18,998 nt of DNA from a virus (IMGVR_UViG_2850808358_000002); one strand, 5' to 3'. Positions 1-7,880 are shown, counted from the stretch's first letter. The notes: generated by a model not told the origin, from the letters alone. Numbers and translations are program-made.

Positions 1-1245
1 CTACGATAACCGCGCATTCAACATGGCTATCTGTTCGTCGTTCATGTCATCAATCCACATACCGTAAATTTCATACACCATTTGCGCAGTTTCATGCCCC
101 ATCTGGCTGGCTATAAATGCCGGGTTCGCTCCTGCCGTCAACAGCCAGCAGGCAAAAGTATGTCGCGTATGGTACGGATTACGGCGGCGAATACCAGCAC
201 GTTTTACTGCTGCATTCCATCTTGCACCCAAACTGCTTACCGAGTAATAAGGTTTCTGTTTTTCGTTACACACCCTGGGCATGAAAACAAAATGCAGTTT
301 TTGCTTTTCAGTTCTGCCGTACTCCCGATGATAAAAAGTGATTTCGCTTTTGCGATGATGCCCGGTCAGTTTGTATTGCTCCTTCAGTGCTTCAAGAGCC
401 GGCTGCAGTAATGTTACCGTCCGGATCCCGGCATTTGTTTTTGGGGGACCGAACATATCAAGTATCGTCAGGTTTCTTCTGACATTCACAATTCCCTTCT
501 CGAAATCCACATCCTCCCACGCCAGAGCTGCCAGTTCCCCGTGACGAAGCCCGGAGTAAACGGCAAATTTCCACAAGTTTTGGCTCTGTCCTTTTTCACT
601 TTCCATTAATGCATTGAATTCTGTTTTAGATAACGGGTCAGGCTTTATTCTGTTTCGCTGTAATTTTTTTACTCCTTCAAATGGTTTGGTTGATATAAAT
701 CCCGACTGATACGCAAAACGTAACAACGAACAGAGCAGGGCGATATAGTTATCAACTGTGCGCACGGTTCTTCCTTTTTTGTTGGATCTTGGATTATCTA
801 GGTAAAGCGTTTCTCCATGCAGCAGTTCATTCCGGTAGTTGAAGATATCGCTATAACGAATATGCGATATCGGGGTACTCTCACAAATTATTATCCTGAG
901 TGTTTTTAATTGTGATTTCGTTTTCTTCATTGTGTTTGTTGTTAACTCTGTCTCTTTAATTTTTGTCCAGATATCACAAAGCTCCCCGAATGTTTTTATG
1001 ACCCTCGTTGTCACCATTTTTGCCCCAGTGCTGGACTGGGGCAAACGTCTTAAATACTCAAATTCACCGGAACTGATTTCATGAACTATCAACGCTCTTA
1101 AATTCCCGGCCTTTTTAATGTTACTGTTAGTAATCTCCCAGCCTTTCAATGTTTCCCGACATCGTTTTCCTCGAAACATGAACCAGATGCGAATGTTGAG
1201 GTAGCCTGAGTTTAACGGACACTCCTTCCTGAAATAGAATGGCAT
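1..1245 (-). CDS. int: Phage tyrosine integrase, 5' end interrupted by IS600 (ORF as drawn starts at an ATG inside the IS600 left end)
   Basis: 414-codon minus-strand ORF ending with TAG at 3..1. C-terminal region has the tyrosine-recombinase pattern (NPYHTRHTFACWLL ... MVYEIYGMW). Native sequence stops at 1196; the first 16 codons (MPFYFRKECPLNSGYL) are encoded by the IS600 end. First native Met is at 1179..1177. Confidence 0.8.
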   Translation of the reverse strand: MPFYFRKECPLNSGYLNIRIWFMFRGKRCRETLKGWEITNSNIKKAGNLRALIVHEISSGEFEYLRRLPQSSTGAKMVTTRVIKTFGELCDIWTKIKETELTTNTMKKTKSQLKTLRIIICESTPISHIRYSDIFNYRNELLHGETLYLDNPRSNKKGRTVRTVDNYIALLCSLLRFAYQSGFISTKPFEGVKKLQRNRIKPDPLSKTEFNALMESEKGQSQNLWKFAVYSGLRHGELAALAWEDVDFEKGIVNVRRNLTILDMFGPPKTNAGIRTVTLLQPALEALKEQYKLTGHHRKSEITFYHREYGRTEKQKLHFVFMPRVCNEKQKPYYSVSSLGARWNAAVKRAGIRRRNPYHTRHTFACWLLTAGANPAFIASQMGHETAQMVYEIYGMWIDDMNDEQIAMLNARLS

Positions 1246-1260
1246 CAGAAGGAGCTAATA

Positions 1261-1563
1261 ATGAGCAGAAAAACCCAACGTTACTCTAAAGAGTTCAAAG
1301 CCGAAGCTGTCAGAACGGTTCTTGAAAATCAACTTTCGATCAGTGAAGGCGCTTCCCGATTATCCCTTCCTGAAGGCACTTTAGGACAATGGGTTACCGC
1401 CGCCAGAAAAGGGCTCGGTACTCCTGGTTCCCGCACGGTGGCTGAACTGGAATCTGAAATTCTGCAACTGCGTAAGGCGTTAAATGAAGCTCGCCTTGAG
1501 CGAGATATATTAAAAAAAGCAACAGCGTATTTTGCACAGGAGTCGCTGAAAAATACGCGTTAA
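1261..1563 (+). CDS. IS600 OrfA (helix-turn-helix transposase subunit)
   Basis: 100-aa ORF with ribosome-binding site GGAGC 7 nt upstream; IS3-family OrfA architecture ending at the A7 slippery site. Confidence 0.9.
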   Translation: MSRKTQRYSKEFKAEAVRTVLENQLSISEGASRLSLPEGTLGQWVTAARKGLGTPGSRTVAELESEILQLRKALNEARLERDILKKATAYFAQESLKNTR

Positions 1564-1598
1564 TCGAACAATGGCGACAACAATTTCCCATTGAAGCG

Positions 1599-2417
1599 AT
1601 GTGTCAGGTATTTGGTGTATCCAGGAGCGGTTATTACAACTGGGTACAGCATGAACCCTCAGACAGAAAACAAAGTGATGAGCGGCTAAAACTGGAGATT
1701 AAGGTGGCACATATCCGCACTCGCGAAACATATGGAACCCGGCGGCTCCAGACGGAGCTGGCAGAGAATGGCATCATCGTTGGTCGTGACCGACTGGCAC
1801 GTCTTCGTAAGGAGCTAAGGCTACGCTGTAAGCAGAAACGCAAGTTCAGAGCGACTACGAACCCGAACCACAATCTGCCAGTTGCGCCAAATCTGCTGAA
1901 CCAGACGTTCGCTCCTACAGCACCAAATCAGGTCTGGGTGGCGGACCTGACGTATGTTGCCACACAGGAGGGATGGTTGTACCTCGCTGGCATCAAAGAT
2001 GTTTATACGTGCGAAATTGTCGGCTACGCCATGGGAGAGCGCATGACAAAAGAGCTGACAGGTAAAGCCCTGTTTATGGCGCTCAGGAGCCAGCGCCCAC
2101 CTGCCGGGCTAATCCACCACTCTGATCGAGGTTCACAGTACTGCGCATACGATTACCGGGTCATACAGGAGCAGTTTGGTCTGAAAACATCAATGTCGCG
2201 TAAAGGTAACTGTTACGACAACGCTCCGATGGAAAGCTTCTGGGGAACGCTGAAAAATGAGAGCCTGAGCCACTATCGTTTTAATAACCGGGATGAAGCC
2301 ATCTCAGTAATACGGGAATACATTGAGATTTTCTACAATCGTCAGCGTCGTCACTCTCGTCTGGGGAATATCTCCCCGGCAGCCTTCAGGGAAAAATATC
2401 ATCAGATGGCTGCTTAA
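1599..2417 (+). CDS. IS600 OrfB (DDE catalytic domain; normally made as OrfAB by -1 frameshift)
   Basis: 272-aa ORF in the -1 frame relative to orfA; DDE-type integrase core typical of IS3-family OrfB (…HSDRGSQY…, …[12 protein letters not shown]…). Confidence 0.9.
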   Translation: MCQVFGVSRSGYYNWVQHEPSDRKQSDERLKLEIKVAHIRTRETYGTRRLQTELAENGIIVGRDRLARLRKELRLRCKQKRKFRATTNPNHNLPVAPNLLNQTFAPTAPNQVWVADLTYVATQEGWLYLAGIKDVYTCEIVGYAMGERMTKELTGKALFMALRSQRPPAGLIHHSDRGSQYCAYDYRVIQEQFGLKTSMSRKGNCYDNAPMESFWGTLKNESLSHYRFNNRDEAISVIREYIEIFYNRQRRHSRLGNISPAAFREKYHQMAA

Positions 2418-2457
2418 AAAAAGAACAAATGGTAGTGTCCGCTATTGCCAGTACACC

Positions 2458-2583
2458 TCACACAGTGAATGGGGTTTCTTTATTTTCTGTCTTAATCACG
2501 TAGCCAATACGCTTTCCTTCCAGATTAACCTCGTGAACAATGTCATCAGTAGTTACAACAGTGGCTTCATAACTGGTAATCAT
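2458..2583 (-). CDS. Small hypothetical protein (41 aa as found); stop codon supplied by the IS600 terminus, possibly 3'-truncated
   Basis: ATG at 2583..2581 preceded by AAGGAG 6 nt upstream; translation MITSYEATVVTTDDIVHEVNLEGKRIGYVIKTENKETPFTV, then TGA from the IS600 end sequence (2460..2458). Confidence 0.35.
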   Translation of the reverse strand: MITSYEATVVTTDDIVHEVNLEGKRIGYVIKTENKETPFTV

Positions 2584-3048: not shown

Positions 3049-3600
3049 TCAACAATGAATTTTGAGTAATTGTTCCACAGTCATATTTTTAATTGCGCCC
3101 CGGTTAACAAGAGTCCATCCCTGTTTTTCCAGATAAAACCGGAAAGTCTCCAGGGTACAGACCAGTGCGCCATCAGGAACGGTTTCGGTGAATTCGACAT
3201 TGCCGAATTTGTCGAAGTGAACAACCAGAGTGCGACCATCACCCGGAATCATCTTGTCAGCAGGTGGGGGGTTATTCTGGCGCAGTTCGGCCTCCATGCG
3301 GTCGAACTCAGCAATGTAGGCTTCTTTGAATGCAGCGGCTTTTTTGCCAGTGAATCCCATAACCAGGAAAACGAAGCCGTTTTTGGTGATTTGGTACATT
3401 GGGAGTTTGCGCCCGGTTGAGTCGGTGTATTCGCTCGCCTCAAAATTGAGGGCAGTAAATTTATCTGAGCATTCAATATTTGCGATGGCACGTAACACAT
3501 TGTCGTGTCGTTTGTGGAAGAACTCTGCAACCGCAACAGACGTAGTGACAGCGCGACCGTTTTCTACGGTTACACAAGGGTGAGAAAGGGTAGTAGCCAT
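3049..3600 (-). CDS. Rha-family phage regulatory protein
   Basis: N-terminal region VTVENGRAVTTSVAVAEFFHKRHDNVLRAI... matches the Rha domain pattern. Start chosen at ATG 3600..3598 (GGAGG about 10 nt upstream) so that the domain sits near the N-terminus; the six-frame ORF extends to GTG at 3696. Confidence 0.7.
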   Translation of the reverse strand: MATTLSHPCVTVENGRAVTTSVAVAEFFHKRHDNVLRAIANIECSDKFTALNFEASEYTDSTGRKLPMYQITKNGFVFLVMGFTGKKAAAFKEAYIAEFDRMEAELRQNNPPPADKMIPGDGRTLVVHFDKFGNVEFTETVPDGALVCTLETFRFYLEKQGWTLVNRGAIKNMTVEQLLKIHC

Positions 3601-3692
3601 GATGGCAGCCTCCGCGATGAATTTGATTAACTCACCACCGGAGGTAGCAATCTCATGGGTGGTGAGACGTACAGGGTTGCTACAACCGGTCA

Positions 3693-3893
3693 TCACGGAA
3701 CCCGGCCAGTCTTGCGACTGCCCGCACGCCCCACCATAATTTGAATGTGGCTGTGCATTACGTATAAAAAAACCGCCTGAGCGCGGTTATGCGCCGTGAA
3801 TGACTTCGGGGTAGCAATCCCGGCACCCGTTTTATGAGGTGCAGGTGCACTATAATTCCACCCGTTCTGGTTTTCAATAGCTACATTCAACAT
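3693..3893 (-). CDS. Hypothetical 66-aa ORF (doubtful)
   Basis: ATG with AGGAAAG upstream, but the ORF contains a terminator-like hairpin plus U-run (3766..3788); may be non-coding leader instead. Confidence 0.2.
   Translation of the reverse strand: MLNVAIENQNGWNYSAPAPHKTGAGIATPKSFTAHNRAQAVFLYVMHSHIQIMVGRAGSRKTGRVP
3766..3788 (-). terminator. Candidate intrinsic terminator (minus strand)
   Basis: On the minus strand AACCGC-gctcag-GCGGTT (6-bp stem, 6-nt loop) followed by a run of 7 T. Confidence 0.3.
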
Positions 3894-4236: not shown

Positions 4237-5501
4237 TGAGGTGTACTGGCAATAGCGGACACTACCATTTGTTCTTTTTTTAAGCAGCCATCTGATGATA
4301 TTTTTCCCTGAAGGCTGCCGGGGAGATATTCCCCAGACGAGAGTGACGACGCTGACGATTGTAGAAAATCTCAATGTATTCCCGTATTACTGAGATGGCT
4401 TCATCCCGGTTATTAAAACGATAGTGGCTCAGGCTCTCATTTTTCAGCGTTCCCCAGAAGCTTTCCATCGGAGCGTTGTCGTAACAGTTACCTTTACACG
4501 ACATTGATGTTTTCAGACCAAACTGCTCCTGTATGACCCGGTAATCGTATGCGCAGTACTGTGAACCTCGATCAGAGTGGTGGATTAGCCCGGCAGGTGG
4601 GCGCTGGCTCCTGAGCGCCATAAACAGGGCTTTACCTGTCAGCTCTTTTGTCATGCGCTCTCCCATGGCGTAGCCGACAATTTCGCACGTATAAACATCT
4701 TTGATGCCAGCGAGGTACAACCATCCCTCCTGTGTGGCAACATACGTCAGGTCCGCCACCCAGACCTGATTTGGTGCTGTAGGAGCGAACGTCTGGTTCA
4801 GCAGATTTGGCGCAACTGGCAGATTGTGGTTCGGGTTCGTAGTCGCTCTGAACTTGCGTTTCTGCTTACAGCGTAGCCTTAGCTCCTTACGAAGACGTGC
4901 CAGTCGGTCACGACCAACGATGATGCCATTCTCTGCCAGCTCCGTCTGGAGCCGCCGGGTTCCATATGTTTCGCGAGTGCGGATATGTGCCACCTTAATC
5001 TCCAGTTTTAGCCGCTCATCACTTTGTTTTCTGTCTGAGGGTTCATGCTGTACCCAGTTGTAATAACCGCTCCTGGATACACCAAATACCTGACACATAG
5101 CTTCAATGGGAAATTGTTGTCGCCATTGTTCGATTAACGCGTATTTTTCAGCGACTCCTGTGCAAAATACGCTGTTGCTTTTTTTTAATATATCTCGCTC
5201 AAGGCGAGCTTCATTTAACGCCTTACGCAGTTGCAGAATTTCAGATTCCAGTTCAGCCACCGTGCGGGAACCAGGAGTACCGAGCCCTTTTCTGGCGGCG
5301 GTAACCCATTGTCCTAAAGTGCCTTCAGGAAGGGATAATCGGGAAGCGCCTTCACTGATCGAAAGTTGATTTTCAAGAACCGTTCTGACAGCTTCGGCTT
5401 TGAACTCTTTAGAGTAACGTTGGGTTTTTCTGCTCATTATTAGCTCCTTCTGATGCCATTCTATTTCAGGAAGGAGTGTCCGTTAAACTCAGGCTACCTC
5501 A
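4237..5501 (-). mobile_element. IS600 copy 2 (inverted), 1265 bp, with orfA-orfB fused
   Basis: Same terminal sequences as copy 1 in reverse complement. Slippery run is 8 nt here (T8 on plus strand, 5179..5186) versus 7 in copies 1 and 3. Confidence 0.85.
4280..5437 (-). CDS. IS600 OrfAB fusion transposase (single 385-aa ORF)
   Basis: Continuous ORF: ...[41 protein letters not shown]..., exactly the product expected from the -1 frameshift of copy 1. Also carries R-to-C in ...SMSCKGNCYDN. Confidence 0.85.
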   Translation of the reverse strand: MSRKTQRYSKEFKAEAVRTVLENQLSISEGASRLSLPEGTLGQWVTAARKGLGTPGSRTVAELESEILQLRKALNEARLERDILKKSNSVFCTGVAEKYALIEQWRQQFPIEAMCQVFGVSRSGYYNWVQHEPSDRKQSDERLKLEIKVAHIRTRETYGTRRLQTELAENGIIVGRDRLARLRKELRLRCKQKRKFRATTNPNHNLPVAPNLLNQTFAPTAPNQVWVADLTYVATQEGWLYLAGIKDVYTCEIVGYAMGERMTKELTGKALFMALRSQRPPAGLIHHSDRGSQYCAYDYRVIQEQFGLKTSMSCKGNCYDNAPMESFWGTLKNESLSHYRFNNRDEAISVIREYIEIFYNRQRRHSRLGNISPAAFREKYHQMAA

Positions 5502-5532
5502 CTTACGCTACGTACTTCTCGGGGCGCTTACG
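5502..5532 (+). repeat. 31-bp copy of the IS66-family right terminus, orphan (abuts IS600 copy 2)
   Basis: CTTACGCTACGTACTTCTCGGGGCGCTTACG is identical to 9765..9795, which lies just after the IS66-family transposase stop. Reverse complement begins GTAAGCG, as I recall IS66-family inverted repeats do. Confidence 0.5.
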
Positions 5533-6247: not shown

Positions 6248-6335
6248 ACTGCCCATAAAAAGCTCTTGCGAATCCAGCTTCCCCCATTCCTCTGACAACA
6301 GAATCTGATTTGAAGGATAATGAGTAAAATTACCG

Positions 6336-7361
6336 CCCCGTTACTTTATTCGTACCCCTTATAATGGGGTGTTAGCCAGCCAGACCCGGCATGATTACTG
6401 CCCCCAGTCGTCCATGATCCGGGGGGGGATGTCACCGGGTCTGGTGGGGCGCTGGTAACCGCTAATAGGGGTCAGGTCAGGCACTTTTGCCGGGACCGTC
6501 TGTAACGTGGATGCCGGTACCTGCTCCCCGTGGTTATCTGGTTAACCCATATACAAGGGAGACAGAATGACCGAATCCAGCGATTACGAATCCGTCCAGG
6601 TCTTTATCGGCGTTGATGTCGGTAAAGATACGCATCACGCTGTTGCCATTAATCGTTCAGGTAAACGCCTGTTCGATAAAGCATTACCCAACGACGAAAA
6701 CAAACTCAGGTCGCTAATATCTGACCTGAAACAACATGGTCAGATACTGCTGGTTGTTGATCAGCCAGCTACCATCGGTGCGTTACCTGTCGCCGTTGCC
6801 CGCTCAGAAGGAGTCCTTGTCGGATACCTCCCTGGACTGGCCATGCGCCGCATAGCCGACTTACACGCCGGTGAAGCTAAAACTGATGCTCGTGACGCTG
6901 CCATCATTGCCGAAGCTGCCCGTACCCTGCCTCACGCGCTACGCACGCTGAAACTGGCTGACGAGCAAATCGCCGAACTCTCCATGCTCTGCGGCTTCGA
7001 TGATGATCTTGCCGCACAGACAACGCAGGCCAGCAACCGTATCCGCGGCCTTCTGACCCAGATACATCCGGCACTGGAGCGCGTTCTCGGTCCGAGACTT
7101 GAGTACCCGGCGGTACTCGATCTTCTCCAGCGATATCCCTCACCAGAAAAACTCGCTTCGCTGGGTGAGAAGAAGCTGGCAGCCCAGCTCTGCAAACTTG
7201 CGCCTCGTCTGGGTAAACGCCTTGCAGCAGACATTGCTCAGGCACTGGCCGAACAAACCGTCGTCGTTCCCGGCACGAATGCCGCTGCCGTAGTACTGCC
7301 ACGTCTGGCACTCCAGCTCATCACGCTGCGTAAGCAAAGAGACGAGGTGGCGCTTGAAGTT
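6336..7361 (+). mobile_element. IS110-family element copy 1, 3'-truncated
   Basis: Left end and 5' non-coding region match the reverse complement of 15123..15348; transposase frame matches the full copy up to about 7358, then diverges. Confidence 0.7.
6340..6566 (+). ncRNA. 5' non-coding region of IS110-family element; candidate bridge RNA locus
   Basis: About 227 nt between the element left end (GTTACTTTATTCG...) and the transposase ATG, GC-rich with several inverted-repeat stretches. IS110-family elements are reported to encode a structured guide RNA here. No structure or covariation was computed. Confidence 0.35.
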
Positions 7362-7385
7362 GCATGTATGGTAATGCGGCCATAA
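6567..7385 (+). pseudogene. IS110-family transposase, C-terminally truncated
   Basis: First 266 aa match the 398-aa copy at 13926..15122; ends ...EVALEV then unrelated ACMVMRP and stop. Confidence 0.75.
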
Positions 7386-7542
7386 TTGCCCCGTATGATG
7401 CTGCCCGGTTGCTTAGAATAAGCACAAACAGCATGGAAACTTTTGCTTAATGAACAATGACAGAATCGTCGGAAGACCTGAGGTAGCCTGAGTTTAACGG
7501 ACACTCCTTCCTGAAATAGAATGGCATCAGAAGGAGCTAATA

Positions 7543-7845
7543 ATGAGCAGAAAAACCCAACGTTACTCTAAAGAGTTCAAAGCCGAAGCTGTCAGAACGG
7601 TTCCTGAAAATCAACTTTCGATCAGTGAAGGCGCTTCCCGATTATCCCTTCCTGAAGGCACTTTAGGACAATGGGTTACCGCCGCCAGAAAAGGGCTCGG
7701 TACTCCTGGTTCCCGCACGGTGGCTGAACTGGAATCTGAAATTCTGCGACTGCGTAAGGCGTTAAATGAAGCTCGCCTTGAGCGAGATATATTAAAAAAA
7801 GCAACAGCGTATTTTGCACAGGAGTCGCTGAAAAATACGCGTTAA
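7543..7845 (+). CDS. IS600 OrfA
   Basis: 100 aa, near-identical to 1261..1563. Confidence 0.9.
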   Translation: MSRKTQRYSKEFKAEAVRTVPENQLSISEGASRLSLPEGTLGQWVTAARKGLGTPGSRTVAELESEILRLRKALNEARLERDILKKATAYFAQESLKNTR

Positions 7846-7880
7846 TCGAACAATGGCGACAACAATTTCCCATTGAAGCG

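What the first reader, a model, noticed from the sequence alone, without database searches (positions are those of the whole stretch)
6340..6566. IS110-family 5' non-coding region present twice, once orphaned beside a truncated transposase
Both IS110-family copies keep about 227 nt of GC-rich, repeat-containing non-coding sequence upstream of the transposase ATG (second copy at 15123..15348 on the minus strand). This is where IS110-family elements are reported to encode a guide (bridge) RNA. Copy 1 retains it although its transposase is truncated, and the two copies differ by a G8 versus G7 homopolymer.
Basis: partly seen in the sequence, partly recalled or inferred. Interest (0 to 1): 0.55.

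Follow-up and report, generated by a model that had tools for sequence, protein, structure and literature searches.

The report
ISEc20 bridge RNA gene, two copies
The 227-base stretch is the guide ("bridge") RNA gene of the known insertion sequence ISEc20/ISSfl4, present once in a complete copy and once in a broken copy; this is an ordinary member of a system described in 2024, and the one extra detail is that the two copies differ by one base inside a guide segment.

Summary
Window 6336-7360 (+) matches 15352-14329 (-) except for G8 (6421-6428) versus G7 (15261-15267). RefSeq annotates the element as ISEc20, an IS110-family element; it is clustered with ISSfl4. Copy 2 is complete. Copy 1 breaks off at 7360.

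Durrant et al. 2024 (Supplementary Table 5) already list ISSfl4/ISEc20 with a bridge RNA detected at the left end. Here, about 70 relatives share the same layout: a 5' hairpin and two stem-loops. The stems show compensatory changes. A covariance model built only from distant relatives finds both window copies (163 and 158 bits).

The second loop matches the element's own ends and co-varies with the right end. The first loop (ACUG-CCCCC ... GGGGGG-UG) matches the insertion sites, which are poly-C tracts.

The G8/G7 difference lies in the right-target/handshake guide. The usual ISEc20 sequence is GGGGGG-T-G. G8 and G7 alleles occur elsewhere at other sites, so they are real.

Rfam has no bridge RNA model, so its silence is uninformative. 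Transcription and function were not tested. The finding is already known in kind, with modest interest.

The parts
6336..6339 (+). Copy 1 left junction CCCC. In the preferred model, 6336-6337 are the last two target bases and 6338-6339 are the CC core.
   Evidence: Junctions compared across independent insertions. Bases 1-3 of this CCCC vary between copies of the same IS.
6340..6566 (+). Copy 1 left-end non-coding region, the bridge RNA gene (G8 allele).
   Evidence: Model R1 hit at 6366-6538, 163.3 bits, E 2e-37.
6292..6321 (+). Promoter-like site CTGACA-N18-GATAAT in the flank just upstream of copy 1. It could read into the orphan bridge RNA gene.
   Evidence: Consensus scan only, 10 of 12 matches. 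Not evidence of function.
6342..6347 (+). TACTTT, candidate -10 of a promoter that would form at the circle junction with the right-end TTGACA.
   Evidence: Family-wide TAC[TC][TA]T at this position and TTGAC[AG] at a fixed distance from the right end. Spacing is 18 nt only if the junction holds CC. Inference.
6353..6371 (+). 5' hairpin (UACCCC-UUAUAAU-GGGGUG).
   Evidence: Folding. The hairpin is kept in 52 distinct relatives with different arm sequences.
6379..6446 (+). First stem-loop, the putative target-binding loop. Outer arms are 6379-6395 and 6431-6446.
   Evidence: Outer helix has 6 pairs with compensatory changes.
6397..6405 (+). Left target guide ACUG-CCCCC, same sense as the target left side plus core.
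   Evidence: The 4 nt before CCCCC are the only variable loop positions in the family. Match to flanks is weak but above permutation. The rtcB site gives ACTG plus a C tract.
6421..6428 (+). G8 run: right target guide (GGGG), core guide (GG) and mutated handshake dinucleotide (GG instead of UG).
   Evidence: The usual GGGGGGUG is the reverse complement of the right-junction CACCCCCC. Handshake position taken from PMC11208158.
6446..6529 (+). Second stem-loop, the putative donor-binding loop.
   Evidence: Outer helix has 8 pairs and inner stem 4 pairs with compensatory changes.
6463..6474 (+). Left donor guide UAAUAGGGG(U)CA, same sense as the right end TAATAGGGGCA.
   Evidence: 9-mer match, p=0.0125 in shuffles. 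Loop GGGAC goes with right-end GGGAC in 11 of 11 loci and GGGG with GGGG in 48, with 1 discordant.
6502..6512 (+). Right donor guide GUAAC-GU plus handshake GG(AU), reverse complement of CC(C)CGTTAC at the left end.
   Evidence: Invariant in 61 sequences. Complementary to the left end with one mismatch. On its own the 6-mer is not significant (p=0.18).
6567..7385 (+). Truncated transposase ORF of copy 1. The ISEc20 sequence ends at 7360. The Tnp domain and the right end are missing.
   Evidence: Pfam shows the DEDD domain only. Alignment. Downstream sequence is a ydaT/ydaU fragment.
13896..13900 (-). Copy 2 right junction CCCCC: core CC at 13900-13899, then target C's.
13901..13921 (-). Right end of copy 2, CTTGACAACTTAATAGGGGCA. 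TTGACA lies at 13915-13920.
   Evidence: Shared end point in independent insertions. TTGAC[AG] is conserved in relatives.
13926..15122 (-). Intact ISEc20 transposase (bridge recombinase), 398 aa.
   Evidence: Pfam DEDD_Tnp_IS110 7e-49 and Transposase_20 9e-22. The Tnp domain matches solved IS621 and ISCro4 recombinases, 1e-14 and 2e-12.
15123..15348 (-). Copy 2 left-end non-coding region, the bridge RNA gene (G7 allele).
   Evidence: R1 hit at 15322-15151, 158.1 bits, E 4e-36.
15261..15267 (-). G7 run in copy 2, one base shorter than in copy 1.
   Evidence: The same allele occurs in plasmid pCFSAN029787_01 at another site.
15349..15352 (-). Copy 2 left junction CCCC. The insertion lies in a poly-C tract of a prophage tail-fibre gene.
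   Evidence: The empty site in E. coli CFSAN029787 reads GGCGGTA-C8-GCTGAG inside a tail-fibre CDS.

Best explanation
The 227-nt stretch is the left-end non-coding region of ISEc20 (ISSfl4 in ISfinder naming), an element of the IS110 group of the IS110 family. It most likely encodes the element's bridge RNA (also called seekRNA).

Proposed RNA layout: a 5' hairpin, then a target-binding stem-loop, then a donor-binding stem-loop.

Donor-binding loop: the 5' strand UAAUAGGGG(U)CA has the same sequence as the right end. The 3' strand GUAACGUGG is complementary to the left end (CCCCGTTAC).

Target-binding loop: the 5' strand ACUG-CCCCC has the sense of the target's left side plus core. The 3' strand GGGGGG is complementary to core plus right side. 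The following UG is the 'handshake' dinucleotide, which can pair with the donor's CA after strand exchange.

Preferred recombination model, which is inferred: element = GTTAC...GGGGCA plus a CC core, and target = (A)CTG-CC|CC|CCCC, that is, a poly-C tract of about eight bases.

By analogy with IS621, the 398-aa DEDD/Tnp recombinase of copy 2 would bind this RNA and recombine a circular form of the element into C tracts.

Copy 1 keeps the whole RNA gene but lacks the Tnp domain and the right end. It cannot move. At most it could supply RNA in trans.

Both window copies carry a derived allele of the handshake/right-target segment: usual G6-U-G, then G8 in copy 1, then G7 in copy 2.

Shown here: identity of the element, conserved structure, and complementarity and covariation with the ends and with targets. 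Inferred: transcription, binding to the recombinase, the exact register of the guides, and any effect of G8/G7.
For: Identity. RefSeq annotates the element as 'IS110-like element ISEc20 family transposase', and it is present in 1463 of 5426 E. coli genomes. Pfam finds DEDD_Tnp_IS110 plus Transposase_20. The Tnp domain is homologous to the solved IS621 and ISCro4 bridge recombinases. Durrant 2024 Supplementary Table 5 lists 'ISSfl4 | Detected Bridge RNA End: LE | IS110 | ISEc20;ISSfl4'.

Structure. Among 61 distinct sequences from Enterobacteria, Burkholderiales and Microbacteriaceae, 18 pairs carry compensatory changes. There are 138 cells with a change on both sides, against 40.9 +/- 6.9 in shuffles and 6-23 in slid controls. 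These fall in the outer helix of loop 1 (6 pairs), the outer helix of loop 2 (8 pairs) and the inner stem of loop 2 (4 pairs). The proposed guide segments show none. The 5' hairpin is also kept with changed arms.

Independent covariance model. Model R1, built from 57 relatives of 73-82% protein identity and no enterobacterial sequence, hits 6366-6538 at 163.3 bits and 15322-15151 at 158.1 bits. Nothing else in the window is hit above 21 bits.

Donor loop. A 9-mer matches the right end (p=0.0125). Loop ATAGGGAC pairs with right-end ATAGGGAC in 11 of 11 loci, and GGGG with GGGG in 48, with 1 discordant.

Target loop. All insertions lie in C tracts, with left junction N-CCCC-GTTAC and right junction GGGGCA-CCCCCC. 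The usual GGGGGGUG is the reverse complement of CACCCCCC. The empty site for copy 2 is a C8 tract. The variable 4 nt match the bases before the C tract better than permuted pairings do (123 versus 104 +/- 6.3, p=0.002). The two alleles with ACUU sit after T (L003, L038).

Geometry of guides and handshake positions comes from PMC11208160 and PMC11208158.
Against: No transcript data are available, and no sigma-70 promoter is found inside the integrated element.

The left side of natural targets matches the guide poorly. In 13 ISEc20 sites, my hand count from the junctions gives 22 of 52 positions matching. The permutation test does not control for host base composition.

Taken alone, the 6-mer against the left end and the G-rich 8-mer are not significant (p=0.18 and 0.16).

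The left donor guide stops one base (preferred model) to three bases before the core, unlike IS621.

The core position cannot be fixed, because target and donor are both C runs and the tracts vary in length (C6-C12). Copy 2 has 4+5 C's against a C8 empty site, which fits no model exactly.

Rfam gives no support either way.
Confidence: 0.85

Rival explanations
1. The conserved 5' region is not a guide RNA. It would be a leader that controls transposase translation, or a set of DNA sites bound by the transposase at the left end. The similarity of the loops to the ends would then reflect repeated protein-binding motifs.
For: No transcript evidence here. The region ends in a Shine-Dalgarno sequence and the ATG. 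Some matches to the ends are short and not significant alone. The left side of targets is poorly predicted.
Against: Compensatory changes in three helices argue for a folded single strand. The loop co-varies with the right end 1.4 kb away, in the sense expected for a guide. The family's characterised members (IS621, ISEc21) need this RNA. The element is already listed as carrying a bridge RNA.
Confidence: 0.05
2. Copy 1 is an inert fossil, and the G8/G7 difference is neutral homopolymer slippage with no effect on targeting or activity. The 'orphan' RNA gene does nothing.
For: Copy 1 lacks the Tnp domain and the right end and sits among prophage and IS debris. Integrated IS621 loci express bridge RNA only weakly (abstract of PMC13626964). 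G8 and G7 alleles are found at several different sites, so neither abolishes movement. Another IS in the window also differs by one base in a homopolymer.
Against: The changed base is the handshake position, which strongly modulates IS621 efficiency. Bridge RNA works in trans for IS621. A promoter-like site lies just upstream of copy 1. None of this shows function.
Confidence: 0.6
3. The G8 versus G7 difference is a sequencing or assembly error in a homopolymer.
For: It is a single-base length difference in an 8-base run between otherwise identical copies. The window has a second case of this kind, A7 versus A8 in the IS3-family copies.
Against: The G7 allele occurs in an independent assembly (pCFSAN029787_01), in a copy differing by only 3 substitutions and sitting at another site. 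G8 occurs in three other records: L006, L013 and L038.
Confidence: 0.12

Closest known systems
IS621 bridge RNA and recombinase (Durrant et al. 2024; Hiraizumi et al. 2024)
   Same: Same family and same domain pair (DEDD/RuvC plus Tnp with the SGSS serine motif). The RNA gene sits in the left end upstream of the recombinase. The layout is a 5' hairpin plus two stem-loops with internal loops. One loop carries guides for the target and the other for the donor, in the same strand sense. A handshake dinucleotide lies just 3' of the core guide.
   Different: The recombinase is 398 aa against 326-328 aa, and the N-terminal domains barely align. No sequence or covariance-model similarity of the RNA was detected: R1 does not hit IS621. 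The core appears to be CC, not CT. The target is a poly-C tract rather than a REP-type sequence. Only about 4 loop positions vary across the family. The left donor guide does not reach the core. Nothing here has been tested experimentally.
ISSfl4/ISEc20 entry in Durrant et al. 2024 Supplementary Table 5; IS110 cluster (IS110, ISAar2, ISBma3, ISSfl4 and others) in their supplementary file 4
   Same: This is the same element. A bridge RNA was already detected computationally at its left end.
   Different: In the two supplementary tables I read, the entry gives only the end, the group and the clustered elements, with no guide assignment, target or allele variation. The rest of the supplement was only term-searched for 'ISEc'.
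ISEc21 seekRNA (Siddiquee et al. 2024)
   Same: An IS110-family element with an upstream non-coding region that is required for circle formation and transposition. A promoter forms at the circle junction.
   Different: It belongs to a different subgroup (345-385 aa transposases) with a different target (a conserved region of IS3-family transposase genes). A short RNA of 58-74 nt suffices there. No such mapping exists for ISEc20.

Membership tests
IS110 family insertion sequence (IS110 group) | Transposase with an N-terminal DEDD (RuvC-like) domain and a C-terminal Tnp domain (PF02371) carrying a conserved serine | tested here: met
   Pfam PF01548 7e-49 and PF02371 9e-22. The Tnp domain aligns to IS621 including SGSSxRG. 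Copy 1 has only the DEDD domain.
IS110 family insertion sequence (IS110 group) | No terminal inverted repeats | tested here: met
   The ends GTTACTTTATTCG... and ...CTTAATAGGGGCA are not reverse complements of each other. No terminal inverted repeat was reported.
IS110 family insertion sequence (IS110 group) | Long non-coding region upstream of the transposase (downstream in the IS1111 group) | tested here: met
   226-227 nt lie upstream, and only 24 nt lie between the stop codon and the right end. Durrant's table lists LE / IS110.
IS110 family insertion sequence (IS110 group) | Site-specific insertion without a target duplication beyond the shared core | tested here: inconclusive
   All insertions lie in C tracts. 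Because core and flanks are all C and the tracts vary in length, duplication cannot be counted.
IS110 family insertion sequence (IS110 group) | Circular intermediate with a promoter formed at the junction | not testable with these tools
   Only a sequence hint: TTGACA in the right end and TACTTT in the left end would be 18 nt apart if the junction holds CC.
Bridge RNA / seekRNA | Structured RNA with two stem-loops carrying internal loops, with stems supported by covariation | tested here: met
   18 pairs with compensatory changes in the three stems. R1 hits at 163 and 158 bits.
Bridge RNA / seekRNA | One loop complementary to both ends of the element (donor) | tested here: met
   UAAUAGGGG matches the right end (p=0.0125). 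GUAACGUGG is complementary to the left end with 1 mismatch. Loop and right end co-vary.
Bridge RNA / seekRNA | Other loop complementary to the target on both sides of the core | tested here: inconclusive
   The core plus right side (a C run against GGGGGG) fits all sites. The left side fits weakly (p=0.002 in a permutation that does not control for composition).
Bridge RNA / seekRNA | Handshake dinucleotide 3' of the core guide, complementary to the donor bases before the core | tested here: inconclusive
   The usual ISEc20 and all relatives have UG opposite donor CA. The window copies have GG (copy 1) or a shortened run (copy 2). The register depends on the assumed core.
Bridge RNA / seekRNA | The RNA is transcribed, binds the recombinase and is required for recombination | not testable with these tools
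   No expression or biochemical data are available.
Bridge RNA / seekRNA | Match to a curated RNA family model | not testable with these tools
   Rfam 15 gives nothing for the window. It also gives nothing for the IS621 bridge RNA itself, so no such model exists in the library.

The most novel reading that the evidence does not exclude
Single-base changes in the homopolymeric right-target/handshake segment (G6-U-G to G8 to G7) could act as a natural, slippage-driven switch. The switch would retune the efficiency or register of an RNA-guided transposon that itself targets slippage-prone poly-C tracts. The orphan G8 RNA gene of copy 1 could then supply a second guide variant in trans to the recombinase of copy 2. 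Both known G7 copies sit after 'TA' plus a C tract, but that is only two sites.
Probability: 0.08. Interest if true: 0.55.

Novelty: already known. Interest (0 to 1): 0.25.

Why it matters
The finding mainly provides correct annotation. The unannotated 227 nt upstream of ISEc20/ISSfl4 transposase genes, common in E. coli and Shigella, is a guide RNA gene. Broken copies can still carry it.

Three minor points may be useful to people working on bridge recombinases:
- This widespread subgroup, the one that includes IS110 itself, appears to target poly-C tracts through nearly invariant guides.
- Its handshake dinucleotide is naturally polymorphic.
- Copy 2 disrupts a prophage tail-fibre gene at a C8 tract.

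None of this changes the current picture of the system.

Tried and rejected
- **Rfam.** Searches at gathering threshold and at E<=10 gave no relevant hit. The IS621 bridge RNA used as a positive control also gave nothing, so this test is void.
- **Pairing inside the loops.** The minimum-energy fold pairs CCCCC with GGGGG and pairs parts of the donor loop. These pairs never show compensatory change. I read them as guide segments, not helices.
- **Core position from C counts.** I tried to fix the core by comparing C counts in filled and empty sites. This fails because the tracts vary from C6 to C12.
- **Model with four donor C's.** A model in which the element carries CCCC (donor GGGGCACC-CC-GTTAC) was considered. 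I set it aside because the UG handshake, the 6-G guide, the left donor guide and the junction promoter spacing all fit the CC-only junction better. It is not excluded.
- **TATAAT as a junction -10.** The TATAAT in the 5' hairpin loop (6360-6365) lies 38 nt from TTGACA and is not conserved outside Proteobacteria. Rejected as a junction -10.
- **Same locus as iraM-ymgK?** Copy 1's flank shares about 16 nt with the flank of the ISEc20 copies at the iraM-ymgK locus. The wider flanks differ, so it is a similar target, not the same locus.
- **Preprint not held.** The preprint on half-match recombination (10.64898/2026.08.31.748434) could not be read.

Full report
**Observation**

The window holds two copies of one element. 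Window 6336-7360 (+) equals 15352-14329 (-) apart from one base: G8 at 6421-6428 in copy 1 and G7 at 15261-15267 in copy 2.

Copy 2 has a 398-aa ORF (15122-13926) with Pfam DEDD_Tnp_IS110 and Transposase_20. Copy 1's ORF keeps only the first domain. Copy 1's sequence stops at 7360, where a 121-nt ydaT/ydaU prophage fragment and then an IS3-family element follow.

**Identity**

RefSeq annotates the element as 'IS110-like element ISEc20 family transposase'. It occurs in 1463 of 5426 complete E. coli genomes. The Tnp domain aligns to the solved IS621 and ISCro4 bridge recombinases, including the SGSSxRG serine motif.

Durrant et al. 2024 cluster ISEc20 with IS110, ISSfl4 and others. Their Supplementary Table 5 lists 'ISSfl4, detected bridge RNA end LE, IS110 group, clustered elements ISEc20;ISSfl4'.

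**Ends and targets**

I compared 15 or more independent ISEc20 insertions (L001-L016, L089, L091 and the window). The left junction is N-CCCC-GTTACTTT. The right junction is AATAGGGGCA-CCCCCC, give or take a C.

The empty site for copy 2, found in a prophage of E. coli CFSAN029787, reads GGCGGTA-C8-GCTGAG inside a tail-fibre gene. Empty sites for two other insertions (iraM-ymgK and fadL-yfdF) are poly-C tracts whose length varies between strains from C6 to C12. ISEc20 therefore inserts into poly-C tracts.

**Relatives**

A scan of one genome per species found 385 stretches encoding relatives, of which the best 80 were kept. They comprise 8 ISEc20 copies, one 93% relative, and about 70 elements of 73-82% protein identity in Burkholderiales, Microbacteriaceae and others.

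Wherever the ends could be read, the relatives share:
- the left end CCCCGTTAC[CT][TA]T;
- the right end TTGAC[AG]-N-ATAGGG[G/A]CA followed by a C run;
- the same 5' region.

**Structure**

I aligned 61 distinct sequences (A2). The consensus fold has a first stem-loop and a second stem-loop, each with a large internal loop.

Counting pairs on that structure gives 18 pairs with compensatory changes. There are 138 cells changed on both sides, against 40.9 +/- 6.9 in shuffles and 6-23 when partners are slid. All 18 lie in three places:
- the outer helix of loop 1 (6 pairs);
- the outer helix of loop 2 (8 pairs);
- the inner stem of loop 2 (4 pairs).

The pairs that the energy model draws inside the loops (CCCCC with GGGGG, and parts of the second loop) never show compensatory change. 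A 5' hairpin (6353-6371) is also kept in 52 distinct relatives with different arm sequences.

**Covariance model**

Rfam 15 has no hit in the window. It also has no hit on the IS621 bridge RNA itself, so it holds no such family.

I therefore built model R1 from 57 relatives only, leaving out every enterobacterial sequence. R1 finds 6366-6538 (+) at 163.3 bits and 15322-15151 (-) at 158.1 bits, both full length. Nothing else in the window scores above 21 bits. IS621 and ISSso6 are not hit.

**Donor loop**

The guide geometry is taken from Durrant et al. and Hiraizumi et al..

The 5' strand of loop 2, UAAUAGGGG(U)CA (6463-6474), has the sequence of the right end TAATAGGGGCA. This 9-mer has p=0.0125 in shuffles. 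The 3' strand GUAACGUGG (6502-6510) is the reverse complement of CCCCGTTAC with one mismatch. That match alone is not significant (p=0.18).

The stronger evidence is covariation across the family. Loops with ATAGGGAC go with right ends ATAGGGAC in 11 of 11 loci. Loops with GGGG go with GGGG in 48. One locus is discordant.

**Target loop**

In loop 1 the family is almost invariant: GGCAUGAUU-NNNN-CCCCC ... CAUGAUCC-GGGGGG-UG-UU-GUCACC. Only the four N positions vary.

The segment GGGGGGUG is the reverse complement of the right junction CACCCCCC. In IS621 terms it comprises the right target guide, the core guide, and a handshake dinucleotide UG that can pair with the donor's CA.

The strand NNNN-CCCCC has the sense of the target's left side plus core. 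The four variable bases (ACUG in ISEc20) match the bases before the C tract better than permuted pairings do (123 versus 104 +/- 6.3, p=0.002). This test does not control for host base composition, and many natural sites match poorly.

Sites that fit:
- The rtcB site of O145:H28 strains reads ACTG plus a C tract.
- Copy 1's flank reads ATTACCG-CCCC against AUUACUG-CCCCC.
- The two alleles with ACUU sit after T (L003, L038).

**Core**

Between copies of the same IS, the left junction varies at bases 1-3 of CCCC (CCTC, CCAC, CGCC, ACCC). The right junction varies from base 3 on (CCTC.., CCCT..).

This fits a CC core flanked by target C's. My preferred model is: element = GTTAC...GGGGCA plus CC, and target = (A)CTG-CC|CC|CCCC.

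This model also gives TTGACA-N18-TACTTT at the circle junction. A model with four donor C's is not excluded.

**The G8/G7 difference**

Most ISEc20 copies read GGGGGG-T-G. Copy 1 has T to G (G8). So do L006 (an ETEC plasmid), L013 (Shigella flexneri) and the 93% relative L038.

Copy 2 has lost one G (G7). The same G7 allele occurs in plasmid pCFSAN029787_01, in a copy that differs by 3 substitutions in 1448 nt and sits at another site. The alleles are therefore real and have been mobile.

The changed base is the handshake position. In IS621 this position strongly affects strand exchange. Whether it matters here is unknown.

**Expression**

No sigma-70 promoter is predicted inside the integrated element. 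This agrees with the weak expression reported for integrated IS621. A promoter-like site (6292-6321, 10 of 12 matches) lies just upstream of copy 1. It is only a consensus match.

**Verdict**

The thing is a known kind of element and is already catalogued. The added details are the guide assignment, the poly-C target, and the polymorphic handshake base that is shared by an orphan and an intact copy. All functional statements are inferences from sequence.

Noticed in passing
window 4237-5501 (-) versus 1197-2460 (+) and 7479-8742 (+): There are three copies of one IS3-family element. The middle copy has A8 instead of A7 at the slippery run between orfA and orfB. This fuses them into a single 385-aa ORF (4280-5437, -). 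The other two copies keep separate 100-aa and 272-aa ORFs.
   Followed up: partly
window 3655-3741 (-) and 3766-3842 (-), next to ORF 3049-3696 (-): Rfam finds C4 antisense RNA (68.8 bits) and isrK (64.8 bits) just upstream of a Rha-family phage regulatory protein gene. This looks like a P1/P7-like immunity (immI-type) module inside the prophage.
   Followed up: no
window 7358-7478: The sequence joined to the broken end of copy 1 is a 121-nt piece of the ydaT-ydaU region of Rac-like prophages (100% identical to many E. coli genomes). It is followed at once by the IS3-family element.
   Followed up: partly
window 5502-5532 and 9765-9795: An exact 31-nt direct repeat (CTTACGCTACGTACTTCTCGGGGCGCTTACG). 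One copy abuts the end of the inverted IS3-family copy. The other follows an IS66-family transposase fragment (ORF 8605-9762). It may be an IS66-family end. Not examined.
   Followed up: no
window 15385-16536 (+) and 13146-13751 (+): Copy 2 splits the 5' part of a prophage tail-fibre gene at a C8 tract. The uninterrupted gene and the neighbouring baseplate genes (DUF2612, gp47-like) are seen in E. coli CFSAN029787.
   Followed up: yes
L015/L016 and L055, right junctions: In these copies the right end is followed by C-GTTAC... (GGGGCA-C-GTTACCTCATC; GGGGCA-C-GTTACTACAC). That sequence resembles a left end rather than a C tract. It may be an insertion next to a left-end-like site or the remnant of a tandem or junction form.
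   Followed up: no
L018, L037, L044, L056, right ends: Several relatives have shortened right ends (CATAGGGCCCC.., CATAGCCCC.., CATAGGCCCC..) that run straight into the C tract. Sister copies in the same genomes have the full CATAGGGGCA. These may be products of imprecise recombination or slippage.
   Followed up: no
iraM-ymgK and fadL-yfdF intergenic sites in E. coli: The poly-C tracts used by ISEc20 vary in length among E. coli strains (C7-C12 and C6 to about C11). They are themselves hypermutable.
   Followed up: partly
L089 14927-16054 (plasmid pCFSAN029787_01): A second, unrelated IS110-like element (ISSso6) lies 1.5 kb from the G7 ISEc20 copy on the EIEC invasion plasmid, near virF and ospE2. 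Model R1 does not hit it.
   Followed up: no
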